A DNA stretch of 64,000 nucleotides from Escherichia coli (GTDB lineage Bacteria > Pseudomonadota > Gammaproteobacteria > Enterobacterales > Enterobacteriaceae), in the NCBI RefSeq assembly GCF_003334385.1, contig NZ_QOWN01000004.1; one strand, given 5' to 3'. Position numbers and translations under genes: made by a program. Shown here piece by piece: positions 25,485 to 45,715 of the stretch (positions are counted from its first letter, which is position 1; each line of letters opens with the position of its first letter). A model generated the notes under the pieces. It was given only the letters and a program-made list of their open reading frames with translations. It was not told where the DNA came from and did no database searches.

Positions 25485-26756
25485 GTGGCGTCACAGGAGA
25501 GTAAGTTGTCGAAGCTAAAGTATTTTTTCCCTGATAGTCAGGATTTTATCGATCCCAGTTTCGACTTCTTCCGCGAAACGCGTAACGAACATCGCGTGCG
25601 TCAACGTGACGATCAGTATCCGCATGAGGTTTTTCCTCATCCTTACGATGGTATGCTGGTTTCTAAAGCTGTAGTTGATGGTCTTGGCGGCGGCGAGAGC
25701 AAATATACTCGTGCCCAGCGTTTGCGTTACTTCCGTAATGGAATGAAGCACTTTTTCCGTCTGCCGGAAAATATGGAAACTATGGGTGATTGCGGAGCCT
25801 TCACATATGTTAATCAGGACGTCCCGCCATACCGTGTGGAAGAGGTGATTGAGTTTTACGAAACTTCCCGCTTTAACCATGGCGTTTCTCTCGATCATAT
25901 CGTTTTTGGCTATGAAAAACCTGGTGAGGTATTCAGTGGCGAAGTGTTGGCTGAATGTCGCCGACGCCAGGATATCACTCTGACCTTGGCTCAAGAGTTT
26001 TTAAACAAGTCTCAAAAGTCCTGTTTCACTCCCTTTGGCGTTGCACATGGATGGAGCAAAACCTCCTATCGTCAGTCTGTAGAGGCCCTGCTGGCCATGG
26101 GATACAGAAATATCACCATGGGGGGGATGGTGCCGTTGAAAACGGCGCAGATCCTTGAGACTCTCGAAGAGATTAAACCGCTGCTGAAAAGTGATACACG
26201 TATTCACTTGCTTGGCATTGCCCGTCCAGAGAGTTTCGCCGACTTTATCAAGTTTGGTGTGACCAGTATTGACTCGACAACACCGCTGCAGCAAGCCTTC
26301 AAAGATCGGAAAAACAACTATCATACGCCTGATGGCCCGGCCTATACCGCTGTGCGTGTCCCTCAGTTTGATGCGAATCCAAGTTTGAGTCGCAAAATAA
26401 AATCTGGCGTGATTGATCAGGATATTGCACGACATCTAGAAAAGGATGCCATGGCTGCCCTGTTTGAATATGATAAAGGGGCTTTGTCACTTGAGAAGAC
26501 TCTTGATGCAGTCCTGGCATATGAACGCCTCCATTCGGGTGAAAAAGAGGCCGATAAAATCCGTGCGGATTATGAACGTACGCTAGGAGAACGTCCTTGG
26601 AACCAATGCCAGTGCAATATTTGCCAGGCCATCGGTATCAACGTCATCATTTTCCGCGGAGCAGAACGTAACCGTCGCCGCGGTTTCCATAATATTCAGG
26701 TGTTGTACAACCGTTTACAGCACACATTGTCATTACGCTCAGAGGAACTGTCATGA
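25485..26756 (+). CDS. dpdA: tRNA-guanine transglycosylase (TGT) paralogue, DpdA-like DNA 7-deazaguanine transglycosylase, ~420 aa
   Basis: TGT-like motifs: HLLGIARPE (cf. TGT LMGVGxPE), FGVTSIDSTTP (catalytic Asp region), and C-terminal zinc site CQCNICQ...H (CxCxxC-x25-H). Start uncertain (GTG 25485 or TTG 25506 after AGGAGA). Stop overlaps the next gene (ATGA). Confidence 0.7.
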   Translation: MASQESKLSKLKYFFPDSQDFIDPSFDFFRETRNEHRVRQRDDQYPHEVFPHPYDGMLVSKAVVDGLGGGESKYTRAQRLRYFRNGMKHFFRLPENMETMGDCGAFTYVNQDVPPYRVEEVIEFYETSRFNHGVSLDHIVFGYEKPGEVFSGEVLAECRRRQDITLTLAQEFLNKSQKSCFTPFGVAHGWSKTSYRQSVEALLAMGYRNITMGGMVPLKTAQILETLEEIKPLLKSDTRIHLLGIARPESFADFIKFGVTSIDSTTPLQQAFKDRKNNYHTPDGPAYTAVRVPQFDANPSLSRKIKSGVIDQDIARHLEKDAMAALFEYDKGALSLEKTLDAVLAYERLHSGEKEADKIRADYERTLGERPWNQCQCNICQAIGINVIIFRGAERNRRRGFHNIQVLYNRLQHTLSLRSEELS

Positions 26757-43544: not shown

Positions 43545-45715
43545 TGTGTGCAGACTGGCTGAAAAATTATTACGCTGAAGATAACTATCTGGATTATGAC
43601 AAGGCGATGCAGGGGGGGTATGGAATCCCACAAATGAATACGCTGATTCAACAGGCCGCAGCGCTACGGATGCCCTGTATCGTTCCTTCAACGCGAACGG
43701 GAAGAACGGTGTTTTATGCTCTGGCTGAGAATGCGAAAAGCCTAGACGAATTACGACGTATTTTAACCGCGGCGTTGGGTTCCGCTGACACTACTCCGGA
43801 TATTAAATCACTCAATCATTCTGACGATGGCGGGGAGCAGTTGCTGCTGGAGAAATCCCCGGACGGAATTCTGGCCTTCGATTTCCTACCGGTGCCGGAC
43901 GGTTCGCCGCAACAGGTAAAAGAATGGCAGGCAGCACGAATGAAACGGGTTTATGCCATGCTGCAAACGGTGATGGATCTTTATCATCAGCGACCTGTCT
44001 TACATTCGCTGGTCAGTCGGCAAACCGGACGAATTCTCAGGGATTTCTACACAGCATGCCAGGCTCGCGATGGCAAGATTGCCGAACAGTATCTGGAAGA
44101 GTTACGCGGAAATCAGACGCTTTCTTCTCTGAATCTCCTGTTTCTTGAGCTACAGGGGATGGCGGCTTCAGCAAAATGGGACGCGATTCTCAACCACCCT
44201 CGGCTGGAAGTATTATTGCGCGGCCGGGTGCCGGAGCGTATCCAGCGCCTGCTGTTGCGATCCTCTGGCCATTTAATGCTTAACGCCATCCGCGATGCGC
44301 ACTTCCCACTGGACAGGCGTGAAGATGCCAGGCGACTGGTGCTGGGCTTATTGCCGCTGTACAAGCATAAGCCCCGCTTTGCTCATCAGGCGAGTTTCCT
44401 GCCTGACTGGCAACTGTGGGCCATGGGGGCCGCGCTGCTGGGGATCGACGAATGGCAAACGGCGACGCCTCTATTAGCTCCTGACTGGATACAGCAGGTC
44501 GAGGGGTGGGCGACAGGCACAACCTCGCTGCCCGCGCCGGTAGCAGCGGAAGAACAGGCGCTGATCCAGGCGCCGGTTATCATGCTGATAAGCCTTGAAA
44601 ACGCGACCGATTTATTACTCGAAGCCCTTCTGGCGGACGCTGAGCGCGAAAGTGAGATCTACGCGCAACTGGCGGCGATGCCTGAAGCAACACGACAGGC
44701 ATTGCAAAAAATACCCAAACTCTGGGAGGCATGGCAGGCGCTGAAAAAACGCTGTGAGCCTCAGGACTATGGCTGGTGCCGCTGGCTTGCAGATTTACAA
44801 CAGACTACGGAATCCGAACGGTTTGAATCATTGCGCCAGCAGGCGACCGTTCACTACATGGACTGGGCACCGTCAACCTTCAGCGAAACGCAGTGGCAGG
44901 CGCTGCTTGAGCATCAGTCCAACACCCAGTTGAGTAAGGTTTTGCGAGACGTACTGCCAACTCTTCTGAACTGGTTGGAAGAATATGACGTTAAGGTATC
45001 TGCCTCCTTGTGGCCAGACTGGCTTATGCTGCTGGCAGTTGAGGACATACGCTCAGAAGAAGATGTACGTCTCGGCGGGATGATTCTGGATAAATTCCTT
45101 TCCAGTCCCTTTACCTGCGAAGAATATTCGGCAGCGATTGAATCGACAGAGATTCTATGTGCTGAAAACGTGTCGGTGAGGACGTTGGGTTATTCTCTTG
45201 ATATTGCTGAACTTCTGTATGACAGGGTCACTGCAAACGAAGCCTCCAGATTAGGTTTCTGGATTAAGTTGCAGGAGTTACTCAAGCATCGCTGGGAGCG
45301 CCTGGATGCCAGTATGCAGTTTTCTGCACGCATGGTGGAAAGGCTCTATCTCGGCGAACATGCCGGGAACGTTTTCCCGTCGGAGGACAATACGCCGGGC
45401 GTAGCATCTTCGCTTCATCGCGATCTCAGCGGTAAAACCTTAGCGATTTACAGCCTGATGAAAGGGGCGGCAAGACGCGGAAAAGAGGCGTTGCTTCAGC
45501 TTTATCCAGGACTGGAAGTAGAGCTCAACCACGATCATGTCGCTACCCCTGCGCTGGTGAATCTGGCGAAAACAGCGGACTACTTTATCTTCGCTAGTAG
45601 CAGTTCAAAGCATCAGGCGTTCTATGCTGTGACGGATTATCGCAAAGAGATCATCTACCCCTCTGGAAAGGGGGCGTCCAGTATGATCGCATCTTTCGTC
45701 AGGGCCATGGAGTAA
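43544..45715 (+). CDS. Hypothetical protein, 723 aa, last gene of the operon
   Basis: Start ATG overlaps the PLD gene stop (TGATG); no catalytic motif recognised; followed by terminator-like hairpins. Confidence 0.65.
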   Translation: MCADWLKNYYAEDNYLDYDKAMQGGYGIPQMNTLIQQAAALRMPCIVPSTRTGRTVFYALAENAKSLDELRRILTAALGSADTTPDIKSLNHSDDGGEQLLLEKSPDGILAFDFLPVPDGSPQQVKEWQAARMKRVYAMLQTVMDLYHQRPVLHSLVSRQTGRILRDFYTACQARDGKIAEQYLEELRGNQTLSSLNLLFLELQGMAASAKWDAILNHPRLEVLLRGRVPERIQRLLLRSSGHLMLNAIRDAHFPLDRREDARRLVLGLLPLYKHKPRFAHQASFLPDWQLWAMGAALLGIDEWQTATPLLAPDWIQQVEGWATGTTSLPAPVAAEEQALIQAPVIMLISLENATDLLLEALLADAERESEIYAQLAAMPEATRQALQKIPKLWEAWQALKKRCEPQDYGWCRWLADLQQTTESERFESLRQQATVHYMDWAPSTFSETQWQALLEHQSNTQLSKVLRDVLPTLLNWLEEYDVKVSASLWPDWLMLLAVEDIRSEEDVRLGGMILDKFLSSPFTCEEYSAAIESTEILCAENVSVRTLGYSLDIAELLYDRVTANEASRLGFWIKLQELLKHRWERLDASMQFSARMVERLYLGEHAGNVFPSEDNTPGVASSLHRDLSGKTLAIYSLMKGAARRGKEALLQLYPGLEVELNHDHVATPALVNLAKTADYFIFASSSSKHQAFYAVTDYRKEIIYPSGKGASSMIASFVRAME

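What the first reader, a model, noticed from the sequence alone, without database searches (positions are those of the whole stretch)
25485..45715. Dpd-type 7-deazaguanine DNA modification/restriction island next to leuX
A TGT paralogue (HLLGIARPE, CxCxxC...H zinc site) overlaps a DGQQR ParB/DndB-like protein, and is followed by an operon with an SNF2 helicase, a RecQ-like helicase, a 1504-aa DExH helicase and a PLD nuclease. This gene content and order match the dpd (deazapurine-in-DNA) clusters described in Salmonella Montevideo and other bacteria, where DpdA/B/C insert preQ0/ADG into DNA and DpdD-K are the presumed restriction part. This is an identification by architecture and motifs, not by search, so whether this particular island is a described dpd variant or a new one is open. 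It is the strongest candidate for the system of interest in the window.
Basis: partly seen in the sequence, partly recalled or inferred. Interest (0 to 1): 0.9.

Follow-up and report, generated by a model that had tools for sequence, protein, structure and literature searches.

The report
Known Dpd DNA-modification defence island
This is a complete, intact copy of the already described Dpd (7-deazaguanine-in-DNA) restriction-modification island, sitting at the leuX tRNA hotspot of an E. coli chromosome where it has been catalogued before, so it is ordinary apart from a few small annotation and evolution details.

Summary
Ten ORFs in 25506-45715 pass NCBI's curated equivalog cut-offs for DpdA, B, E, F, G, H, I, J, K and D. 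RefSeq names them so in 46 of 5,426 complete E. coli genomes that carry this island. DpdA is 92% identical to the crystallised S. Montevideo enzyme, with all seven active-site residues kept. Reviews already list Dpd at the leuX "hotspot 37".

- dpdC (24476-25432), upstream of dpdA.
- queD (45978-46340, minus strand).
- A conserved unnamed 77-aa gene (24143-24376).

New but minor points:
- The island is a mosaic. Its modification module (77-aa gene, dpdC, dpdA, dpdB) is 96-98% identical in protein to a second enterobacterial island type.
- DpdC is only 51% identical to the characterised Montevideo DpdC.
- The restriction operon is Montevideo-type (89-93%), and the junction lies in the dpdB-dpdE spacer.
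- A second E. coli island type (58 genomes) keeps the same flanks but carries a 25-50%-identical restriction operon in the opposite orientation.
- The 77-aa gene is under purifying selection, is predicted to be a winged-helix protein, and always precedes dpdC.
- RefSeq truncates DpdC by 35 conserved residues.

The parts
22525..22609 (+). leuX, tRNA-Leu(CAA); integration hotspot that anchors the island
   Evidence: ARAGORN and Rfam tRNA. No second copy of its 3' end occurs in the window, even allowing 3 mismatches.
22796..24040 (+). Intact tyrosine integrase (414 aa) of the island
   Evidence: NCBIfam integrase domain model NF007246, 263 bits, below its 434-bit cut-off. PGAP calls it 'tyrosine-type recombinase/integrase'. 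The S. Montevideo island has ccdAB here instead.
24084..24112 (+). Promoter-like site P1 (TTGAAC-17 nt-TATAAC) upstream of the 77-aa gene
   Evidence: The -35 and -10 blocks are conserved in 7 loci from 5 genera, within otherwise divergent DNA. Its function is inferred.
24143..24376 (+). Unnamed 77-aa gene, predicted winged-helix protein; always immediately upstream of dpdC
   Evidence: Syntenic in the window, both Salmonella island types, the alternative E. coli type, Brenneria, Morganella and Rahnella. dN/dS is 0.04-0.15. It has 68 homologous clusters, all named ones from Enterobacterales and nearly all 77 aa. No match in Pfam, NCBIfam, PADLOC or PHROGs. AlphaFold2 pLDDT is 82, and the best PDB matches are Fur/PerR/BlaI/PadR winged-helix DNA-binding domains (TM about 0.75, E about 3e-3).
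24378..24409 (+). Perfect 15-bp inverted repeat (hairpin or palindrome) between the 77-aa gene and dpdC
   Evidence: the repeat finder. RNA fold is -22.3 kcal/mol, z = -8.4, and the stem is kept with different flanking stem bases in Brenneria and Rahnella. It is weak in the Montevideo type.
24420..24448 (+). Promoter-like site P2 (TTGTCA-17 nt-TAGCTT) upstream of dpdC
   Evidence: CTTG of the -35 block and the whole -10 hexamer (TAGCTT) are invariant in 7 loci. Its function is inferred.
24476..25432 (+). dpdC (318 aa, GTG start); converts preQ0 in DNA to ADG
   Evidence: PADLOC DpdC model PDLC02818, 529 bits over its full length. The reference Montevideo DpdC hits the same model at 497 bits. 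Pfam gives only a weak DUF6884 hit. The N-terminal motif M..INL.TTCTNGK (INL and TTCTNGK invariant across 6 loci) shows that PGAP's start at 24581 is too short. It is 51% identical to Montevideo DpdC and 96% identical to the alternative Salmonella type.
25506..26756 (+). dpdA (416 aa, TTG start); DNA-guanine transglycosylase that inserts preQ0
   Evidence: NCBIfam DpdA equivalog, 580 bits against a 200-bit cut-off, whereas the tRNA Tgt equivalog scores 25 against 307. PDB 7UI4 matches at E = 7e-270. There are 34 differences in 415 aligned residues, and D95, F99, D130, H181, L236, D256 and F265 are all conserved.
26753..27886 (+). dpdB (377 aa); ParB/DndB-like DGQHR-family ATPase required for preQ0 insertion
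   Evidence: NCBIfam DpdB equivalog, 474 bits against a 300-bit cut-off. The motif is DGQQR at residue 115, the same as in the Montevideo reference. It is 91.5% identical to the reference.
27897..27927 (+). Terminator-like hairpin plus T-run after dpdB; end of the modification operon and of the alternative-type homology
   Evidence: Terminator scan. Fold is -15.3 kcal/mol, z = -4.3. Similarity to the alternative type ends at 27869-27876.
27887..28202 (+). AT-rich (31% GC) spacer with promoter-like sites; recombination junction between the modules
   Evidence: It matches neither Salmonella island type well. Four promoter-like sites lie on the + strand. A CRP-like TGTGA-N6-TCAC at 28042-28057 is shared with the Montevideo spacer, but such matches are not enriched in the window (4 found against 2.06 expected).
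28203..31259 (+). dpdE (1018 aa); SNF2-family helicase
   Evidence: NCBIfam DpdE, 980 bits against a 500-bit cut-off. DEAH at residue 275. It is 89-91% identical to the Montevideo protein.
31272..33722 (+). dpdF (816 aa); RecQ-like DEAH helicase
   Evidence: NCBIfam DpdF, 815 bits against a 550-bit cut-off, while recQ models fall below their cut-offs. DEAH at residue 273. 92.8% identical.
33722..34621 (+). dpdG (299 aa); function unknown
   Evidence: NCBIfam DpdG, 297 bits against an 80-bit cut-off. 92.6% identical.
34624..37767 (+). dpdH (1047 aa); P-loop NTPase
   Evidence: NCBIfam DpdH, 677 bits against a 450-bit cut-off. Walker A GKAGVGKS at residue 69. 92.8% identical.
37754..38488 (+). 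dpdI (244 aa); function unknown
   Evidence: NCBIfam DpdI, 294 bits against a 150-bit cut-off. The profile begins at residue 36 of the longer ORF, which supports the start at 37754. 93.4% identical.
38488..43002 (+). dpdJ (1504 aa); YprA/DrmA-like DExH helicase
   Evidence: NCBIfam DpdJ, 1740 bits against an 800-bit cut-off. Walker A at residue 190 and DEVH at 386. Weak PDB matches to Lhr and YprA helicases. 91.9% identical.
42999..43544 (+). dpdK (181 aa); phospholipase-D-family nuclease, the likely cutter
   Evidence: NCBIfam DpdK, 187 bits against a 100-bit cut-off. HTK at residue 123 and GSMN at 136. 92.3% identical.
43544..45715 (+). dpdD (723 aa); function unknown
   Evidence: NCBIfam DpdD, 595 bits against a 300-bit cut-off. 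88.8% identical. No solved relative.
45978..46340 (-). queD (120 aa); island-borne extra copy of the first dedicated preQ0-pathway enzyme
   Evidence: TIGR03367 QueD, 112 bits against an 89-bit cut-off. It sits at the same position in the Montevideo island (94% identical) and in the alternative E. coli type (92.5%). QueD is reported in 78% of dpd islands (PMC12235509).

Best explanation
The region is a complete, apparently functional Dpd restriction-modification island of the Salmonella Montevideo kind, integrated at leuX in an E. coli chromosome. The following steps are shown for the Montevideo orthologues and inferred here from 89-93% identity. The host queuosine pathway, boosted by the island's own QueD, supplies preQ0. 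DpdA, with ATP hydrolysis by DpdB, swaps selected guanines in double-stranded DNA for preQ0. DpdC then hydrates the nitrile to give 7-amido-7-deazaguanine (dADG). The following steps are inferred from genetics in Salmonella and from domain content. The eight-gene operon dpdE-F-G-H-I-J-K-D encodes three helicases (SNF2, RecQ-like, YprA/DrmA-like), a P-loop NTPase, a PLD nuclease and three proteins of unknown function. It surveys DNA and degrades DNA that lacks the mark, in a way that probably resembles DISARM. Modification and restriction appear to be separate transcription units, since a terminator-like hairpin and an AT-rich promoter-bearing spacer lie between dpdB and dpdE. The island arose by recombination: an E. 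coli/Salmonella-type modification module was joined to a Montevideo-type restriction operon.
For: All of DpdA, B, D, E, F, G, H, I, J and K exceed NCBIfam equivalog cut-offs by 1.5 to 3.7 fold. DpdC matches the PADLOC DpdC model over its full length, as does the reference DpdC. DpdA is 92% identical to PDB 7UI4, with every named active-site residue conserved (residues from PMC10164549). Gene order and the queD position are identical to the S. Montevideo island, which is also at leuX (PMC5699537). Helicase, P-loop and PLD motifs are intact and no gene is truncated. The restriction genes are tightly packed, with gaps of -14 to +12 bp. The island is 99.9-100% identical in 46 complete E. coli genomes and PGAP annotates it as dpd. 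Biochemistry of DpdA, B and C is in PMC10164549. The mosaic structure is shown.
Against: No chemistry or phenotype can be tested here. DpdC is only 51% identical to the enzyme whose activity was shown. NCBIfam has no model that recognises DpdC, so its assignment rests on PADLOC and synteny. [quoted passage not shown] The rest of the preQ0 pathway (folE, queE, queC) is not in the window and is assumed to be present in the host chromosome.
Confidence: 0.9

Rival explanations
1. The island is a Dpd-family system, but it writes a different final mark (dPreQ0 only, or another 7-deazaguanine derivative) because its DpdC is a divergent paralogue of the characterised enzyme.
For: DpdC is only 51% identical to the Montevideo DpdC, whereas every other Dpd protein is 89-93% identical. 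The dpdC segment has 37% GC and clearly has a different history.
Against: Both DpdC types match the same PADLOC model end to end at about 500 bits. They align without gaps over 318 residues, with 121 invariant columns across six loci. This same DpdC type is paired with a Montevideo-type restriction operon here, which would be lethal if the marks were not interchangeable (inference).
Confidence: 0.07
2. The cluster is an inactive remnant carried passively in the leuX junkyard, with the restriction or modification function lost.
For: The surroundings are decayed. IS30 and IS911 fragments lie just downstream, no attR repeat is detectable, and yjgR nearby carries an in-frame stop.
Against: All 12 island genes are full length relative to their profiles and to orthologues in other genera. 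Catalytic motifs are intact. The 77-aa gene has dN/dS of 0.04-0.15. The island is conserved at about 100% identity in 46 genomes from varied hosts.
Confidence: 0.03
3. It is a DISARM-like or other helicase-nuclease defence system that merely neighbours a tRNA-modifying TGT paralogue.
For: DpdE gives partial hits to DISARM DrmD and BREX BrxH, and DpdK gives a faint hit to DrmC. DpdJ belongs to the YprA/DrmA helicase family (PMC12458937).
Against: The DISARM models score 71-98 bits against cut-offs of 610-950, while the Dpd models pass. tRNA Tgt equivalogs score 19-25 bits against cut-offs of 307-350. No DNA methyltransferase is present in the cluster.
Confidence: 0.01

Closest known systems
Dpd system of Salmonella enterica serovar Montevideo (dpdA-K; Thiaville et al. 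2016; Gedara et al. 2023, PMC10164549; DpdA structure PDB 7UI4)
   Same: It has the same 11 named genes in the same order (C-A-B, then E-F-G-H-I-J-K-D), the same convergent queD, and the same insertion site at leuX. DpdA, B, D-K and QueD are 89-94% identical in protein. A ScoMcrA-like SBD-HNH gene lies nearby in both.
   Different: DpdC is 51% identical and the 77-aa upstream gene 56% identical. dpdA-B are only 80% identical at the nucleotide level, against 90% for dpdE-D. The dpdB-dpdE spacer is unrelated. The window has an intact integrase where Montevideo has ccdAB.
Second enterobacterial Dpd island type (E. coli SZQ1 and 57 other complete E. coli genomes; Salmonella loci L004-L006)
   Same: The 77-aa gene, dpdC, dpdA, dpdB (91-98% protein identity) and queD (92.5%) are nearly the same, and the gene set and chromosomal hotspot are the same.
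   Different: Its restriction operon is only 25-51% identical in protein and lies in the opposite orientation, convergent with dpdB.
DISARM (DrmA/B/C/D/E)
   Same: It shares a YprA-family helicase (DpdJ/DrmA), an SNF2 helicase (DpdE/DrmD) and a PLD nuclease (DpdK/DrmC). Both discriminate self from non-self by a DNA mark (PMC12458937).
   Different: The mark is a 7-deazaguanine inserted by base exchange, not a methyl group. There is no methyltransferase. The DISARM profiles fall well below their cut-offs.
Phage DpdA systems (for example phage 9g and CAjan)
   Same: They use a DpdA-family transglycosylase that inserts a preQ0 derivative into DNA (PMC6884629).
   Different: Phage systems modify a large fraction of G residues to evade restriction and have no DpdB-K restriction partners. 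Here modification is expected to be sparse, about 1 in 1,000 nucleotides in the bacterial systems (PMC10164549).

Membership tests
Dpd 7-deazaguanine restriction-modification system | DpdA: a TGT-family DNA-guanine transglycosylase with catalytic Asp95 and Asp256 and the base-binding residues | tested here: met
   NF041059 scores 580 bits against a 200-bit cut-off. It is 92% identical to 7UI4, and D95, F99, D130, H181, L236, D256 and F265 are all conserved.
Dpd 7-deazaguanine restriction-modification system | DpdB: a ParB/DndB-like DGQHR-domain ATPase adjacent to dpdA | tested here: met
   NF041060 scores 474 bits against a 300-bit cut-off. It overlaps dpdA by 4 bp, and the DGQQR motif is identical to the reference.
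Dpd 7-deazaguanine restriction-modification system | DpdC: a DUF6884/DUF328-like protein that converts preQ0-DNA to ADG-DNA | tested here: met
   PADLOC PDLC02818 scores 529 bits over the full length, and the reference DpdC hits the same model. Pfam gives DUF6884 at E = 2.5e-4. It is syntenic upstream of dpdA in six loci. NCBIfam has no model that matches either DpdC type. Enzyme activity was not tested.
Dpd 7-deazaguanine restriction-modification system | Restriction operon DpdD-K: SNF2, RecQ-like and YprA-like helicases, a P-loop NTPase, a PLD nuclease, and DpdD, DpdG and DpdI | tested here: met
   All eight pass NCBIfam equivalog cut-offs. Their motifs are intact.
Dpd 7-deazaguanine restriction-modification system | A source of preQ0 (folE, queD, queE, queC, or salvage) | tested here: inconclusive
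   Only queD is in the island. The other genes are not in the window. Their presence in E. coli chromosomes is established knowledge but was not checked for this strain.
Dpd 7-deazaguanine restriction-modification system | dPreQ0 and dADG present in genomic DNA | not testable with these tools
   This needs LC-MS/MS of hydrolysed DNA.
Dpd 7-deazaguanine restriction-modification system | Restriction of unmodified incoming DNA | not testable with these tools
   This needs transformation or phage assays with a deletion control.
DISARM | DrmA, DrmB, DrmC plus a methyltransferase or DrmD/DrmE, each passing its family model | tested here: not met
   DrmD models score 71-98 bits against cut-offs of 610-950. 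DrmC is a faint hit at E = 8.5e-4. No methyltransferase ORF is in the cluster.
tRNA-guanine transglycosylase (Tgt/TgtA) | A full-length match to the Tgt equivalog model | tested here: not met
   TIGR00430 scores 25 bits against a 307-bit cut-off, and TIGR00432 scores 19 against 350.

The most novel reading that the evidence does not exclude
The conserved 77-aa winged-helix protein encoded just upstream of dpdC is an unrecognised twelfth component of enterobacterial Dpd islands. It would act as a controller-type regulator, analogous to the C proteins of type II R-M systems. It would bind the conserved promoter or palindrome region (24084-24448) to time modification against restriction when the island enters a new host. 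Together with the observed swapping of highly divergent restriction operons between constant modification modules, this would mean that the modification module is a self-regulating, portable unit, and that different Dpd restriction cassettes read the same dADG mark.
Probability: 0.3. Interest if true: 0.35.

Novelty: already known. Interest (0 to 1): 0.12.

Why it matters
Dpd is the largest known restriction-modification system, and its restriction half is mechanistically unexplored, so any carrier strain is a potential experimental handle. This copy, however, adds no new kind of system. It is already named in RefSeq, counted in reviews of the leuX hotspot, and 89-93% identical to the studied Salmonella proteins. 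The useful by-products are practical. The DpdC gene model should be corrected. Annotation pipelines that rely on NCBIfam will not name DpdC. A conserved small winged-helix gene is worth deleting in future Dpd experiments. Two natural island types share one modification module but carry very different restriction operons, which makes them a ready-made test of whether the restriction cassettes are interchangeable.

Tried and rejected
- **attR repeat:** I searched for a second copy of the leuX 3' end to define the island's right boundary. There was no exact repeat of 14 nt or more, and no match to the last 23 nt with up to 3 mismatches. The boundary is either outside the window or eroded by the IS30 and IS911 fragments.
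- **preQ1 riboswitch:** I looked for a preQ1 riboswitch or other RNA element near queD or the dpd genes. Rfam gave no hit between the leuX tRNA and the group II intron.
- **NCBIfam for DpdC:** There was no hit. This proved to be a library gap, because the reference Montevideo DpdC also gives no hit.
- **Solved structures:** There are none for DpdB, DpdC or DpdD, and DpdJ gives only weak helicase-core matches.
- **Montevideo-type dpdC in E. coli:** Megablast found none in 5,426 complete genomes.
- **CRP-like site in the dpdB-dpdE spacer:** It is shared with Montevideo, but such matches are not enriched in the window (4 found against 2.06 expected), so I give it little weight.
- **The 77-aa protein:** Pfam, NCBIfam, PADLOC and PHROGs gave nothing. 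Only the predicted fold was informative.
- **Papers not held:** The PNAS 2016 and MMBR 2024 papers could not be read. I therefore cannot exclude that the 77-aa gene or the two island types are mentioned there.
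Full report
**Observation**

The window carries tRNA-Leu(CAA), which is leuX, at 22525-22609. The quoted motifs are all present. HLLGIARPE is at DpdA residue 234, CxCxxC...H at 368-395, and DGQQR at DpdB residue 115. The two genes overlap by 4 bp.

**Identification**

Against NCBIfam, ten ORFs pass the curated equivalog cut-offs:

| Protein | Score (bits) | Cut-off (bits) |
|---|---|---|
| DpdA | 580 | 200 |
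| DpdB | 474 | 300 |
| DpdE | 980 | 500 |
| DpdF | 815 | 550 |
| DpdG | 297 | 80 |
| DpdH | 677 | 450 |
| DpdI | 294 | 150 |
| DpdJ | 1740 | 800 |
| DpdK | 187 | 100 |
| DpdD | 595 | 300 |

Competing families fail. tRNA Tgt scores 25 bits against a 307-bit cut-off, DISARM DrmD scores 71-98 against 610-950, and RecQ falls below its cut-offs. PADLOC gives the same assignments. It also identifies the ORF upstream of dpdA (24476-25432) as DpdC, at 529 bits over the full length.

**Where the window comes from**

A megablast of 22400-46600 shows the window is E. coli chromosome. The segment is 100% identical to strain 2013C-4991 and many others. 46 of 5,426 complete genomes carry at least 80% of it, and RefSeq already labels the genes dpdA, dpdB, dpdE-K and dpdD.

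**Comparison with the studied system**

DpdA matches the crystal structure of S. Montevideo DpdA (7UI4) at E = 7e-270. I fetched Salmonella loci through exact-protein look-ups. Locus L008 (CP017977.1) encodes a DpdA identical to the 7UI4 sequence, so it represents the reference type.

- **Gene order:** It is the same as in the window: a 77-aa ORF, dpdC, dpdA, dpdB, dpdE-F-G-H-I-J-K-D, and then queD on the opposite strand.
- **Protein identities to the window:** DpdA 92, DpdB 91.5, DpdE 89-91, DpdF 92.8, DpdG 92.6, DpdH 92.8, DpdI 93.4, DpdJ 91.9, DpdK 92.3, DpdD 88.8, QueD 94%.
- **Active site:** All seven DpdA residues named in the structural paper (D95, F99, D130, H181, L236, D256, F265; PMC10164549) are conserved.
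- **Motifs in the restriction genes:** DEAH in DpdE and DpdF, Walker A in DpdH, Walker A plus DEVH in DpdJ, and HxK plus GSxN in DpdK are all intact.

**What the literature already says**

- The Montevideo cluster is inserted at leuX (PMC5699537, section 12).
- A 2025 EcoSal Plus review lists Dpd in 2% of leuX-anchored "hotspot 37" islands in its survey of 9,040 complete enterobacterial genomes, and writes the modification genes as dpdCAB (PMC12707154).
- GATOR-GC catalogued 37,198 dpd islands, with Escherichia among the main genera. It reports QueD in 78% of islands, DpdC as DUF6884, and flanking LptF/G, PepA, HolC and zinc-dehydrogenase genes (PMC12235509). That is the context seen here.
- The island is therefore already known.
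- The mechanism of modification is established for the Salmonella proteins. DpdA with the DpdB ATPase inserts preQ0, and DpdC then makes ADG (PMC10164549).
- The restriction mechanism is not established (PMC12707154).

**Corrections to the finding**

- dpdA starts at the TTG at 25506, not at 25485.
- dpdC, queD and the 77-aa gene belong to the island.
- dpdC starts at the GTG at 24476 and encodes 318 aa. The N-terminal motif M..INL.TTCTNGK is conserved across six loci from five genera, with INL and TTCTNGK invariant, and the PADLOC model covers residues 1-317. PGAP's 283-aa call is therefore truncated.
- NCBIfam has no model that recognises even the reference DpdC. This explains why RefSeq calls it "hypothetical".

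**Mosaic structure**

- **Outliers:** DpdC is only 51% identical to the Montevideo version, and the 77-aa protein only 56%. Both are 96% identical to those of a second Salmonella island type (L004). DpdA and DpdB are 97-98% identical to that type.
- **Junctions:** Nucleotide identity to L004 is about 95% from 23872 to 27869. Identity to the Montevideo type is about 90% from 28194 onward. The 316-bp spacer between them matches neither.
- **Junction site:** The junction coincides with a terminator-like hairpin after dpdB (27897-27927) and an AT-rich stretch with promoter-like sites.
- **GC content:** It differs by module: 37% for the 77-aa gene plus dpdC, 48% for dpdA-B, 31% for the spacer, and 54% for dpdE-D.
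- **Second type in E. coli:** It occurs in 58 complete E. coli genomes. It has the same flanks (77-aa gene 97%, DpdC 91%, DpdA 96%, DpdB 97%, QueD 92.5%). Its restriction operon is only 25-51% identical and inverted.
- **Absence of the Montevideo dpdC:** No complete E. coli genome carries a Montevideo-type dpdC at megablast sensitivity.
- **Frequency:** The two types together account for about 1.9% of genomes, consistent with the published 2%.
- **Inference:** The restriction operon is the unit of exchange, and both cassettes tolerate the same modification module.

**The 77-aa gene (24143-24376)**

- **Position:** It sits about 100 bp upstream of dpdC in every island examined, including Brenneria, Morganella and Rahnella, where the restriction genes are arranged differently.
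- **Distribution:** It has 68 homologous clusters. Every one that carries a source name is from Enterobacterales, and nearly all are 77 aa.
- **Selection:** dN/dS is 0.04-0.15.
- **Family searches:** It matches no family in four libraries.
- **Predicted fold:** The AlphaFold2 model (pLDDT 82) has a helix / helix-turn-helix / beta-hairpin topology. Its best PDB matches are the winged-helix DNA-binding domains of Fur, PerR, Zur, BlaI and PadR (TM about 0.75, E about 3e-3, all above 0.001). This is a fold-level assignment only.
- **Nearby conserved elements:** There is a promoter-like TTGAAC-17-TATAAC at 24084-24112, a perfect 15-bp inverted repeat at 24378-24409 (-22.3 kcal/mol, z = -8.4), and a second promoter-like TTGTCA-17-TAGCTT at 24420-24448.
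- **Likely role:** The protein is not needed for modification in vitro, since DpdA, B and C suffice (PMC10164549). A regulatory role is therefore the most economical guess, but it is untested.

**Verdict**

Interest is low. The residual novelty lies in the module exchange and the unnamed winged-helix gene. Neither changes the classification.

Noticed in passing
window 24143-24376 (+), with flanking elements 24084-24112, 24378-24409 and 24420-24448: This conserved 77-aa ORF, annotated 'hypothetical', always lies about 100 bp upstream of dpdC in Enterobacterales. It is under purifying selection (dN/dS 0.04-0.15) and is predicted to be a winged-helix protein. Conserved promoter-like sites and a perfect 15-bp inverted repeat flank it. 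It may be an unnamed regulator of the modification module.
   Followed up: yes
window 23872-27869 versus 28194-45748; loci L004, L008, L011: The island is a recombinant. Its modification module is of the type seen in a second E. coli/Salmonella island type, and its restriction operon is of the S. Montevideo type. The junction lies in the dpdB-dpdE spacer. 58 other complete E. coli genomes keep the same flanks around a 25-51%-identical, inverted restriction operon.
   Followed up: yes
window 24476-24580: RefSeq/PGAP starts dpdC at 24581 (283 aa) and calls it hypothetical. The conserved N-terminal motif M..INL.TTCTNGK and a full-length PADLOC match show that the GTG at 24476 (318 aa) is the start. 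NCBIfam has no model that recognises DpdC.
   Followed up: yes
window 48997-49833 (-): This is a phosphorothioate-DNA-binding SBD-HNH (ScoMcrA-like) restriction endonuclease (NF045808, 414 bits against a 180-bit cut-off). A 69%-identical copy also lies just beyond queD in the S. Montevideo island, so a modification-dependent nuclease travels near Dpd in both species.
   Followed up: partly
window 46591-48963: The DNA between queD and the SBD-HNH gene is decayed mobile DNA. It holds a putative zinc-ribbon protein gene, a YagK/YfjJ fragment, an IS30 transposase fragment (47254-48048) and an IS3/IS911 fragment (48124-48963).
   Followed up: no
window 28042-28057 (+): A CRP-like TGTGATCGCTGTCACT lies about 150 bp upstream of dpdE. 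A similar TGTGATCAAGATCAC sits in the otherwise unrelated Montevideo spacer. Such matches are not enriched in the window (4 found against 2.06 expected), so this is a weak lead.
   Followed up: partly
window 57441-59238 (+): A group II intron is present (Rfam D1-D4 and domain V/VI models). Its reverse transcriptase/maturase reading frame is split into two overlapping ORFs (57892-58338 and 58242-59162), so it is probably a frameshifted, inactive copy. It is flanked by IS21 and IS110 fragments.
   Followed up: no
window 19678-21228 (-), stop codon near 20605-20607: yjgR, a HerA-like P-loop protein that is 500 aa in strain 2013C-4991, carries an in-frame stop codon in this window. This splits it into ORFs of 206 and 298 aa.
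   Followed up: partly
window 15353-15524 and 16358-16552 (+): Rfam hits to naRNA4 (two tandem copies) and Ysr276 lie in intergenic DNA around pepA and holC. They are probably REP-type repeat elements.
   Followed up: no
window about 10964-11184: Compared with strain 2013C-4991, the window lacks the IS1A insertion in the DUF898 (yjgN) gene. It is also only 97.6% identical upstream of that point, although about 99.9% identical across the island. The window therefore comes from a different strain carrying the same island.
   Followed up: partly
window 50115-55760: A sigma-54-dependent Fis-family regulator gene on the minus strand is followed by genes for a CaiB/BaiF CoA-transferase, an HMG-CoA lyase and an MFS transporter. 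This is a metabolic cargo module of the leuX island unrelated to Dpd.
   Followed up: no
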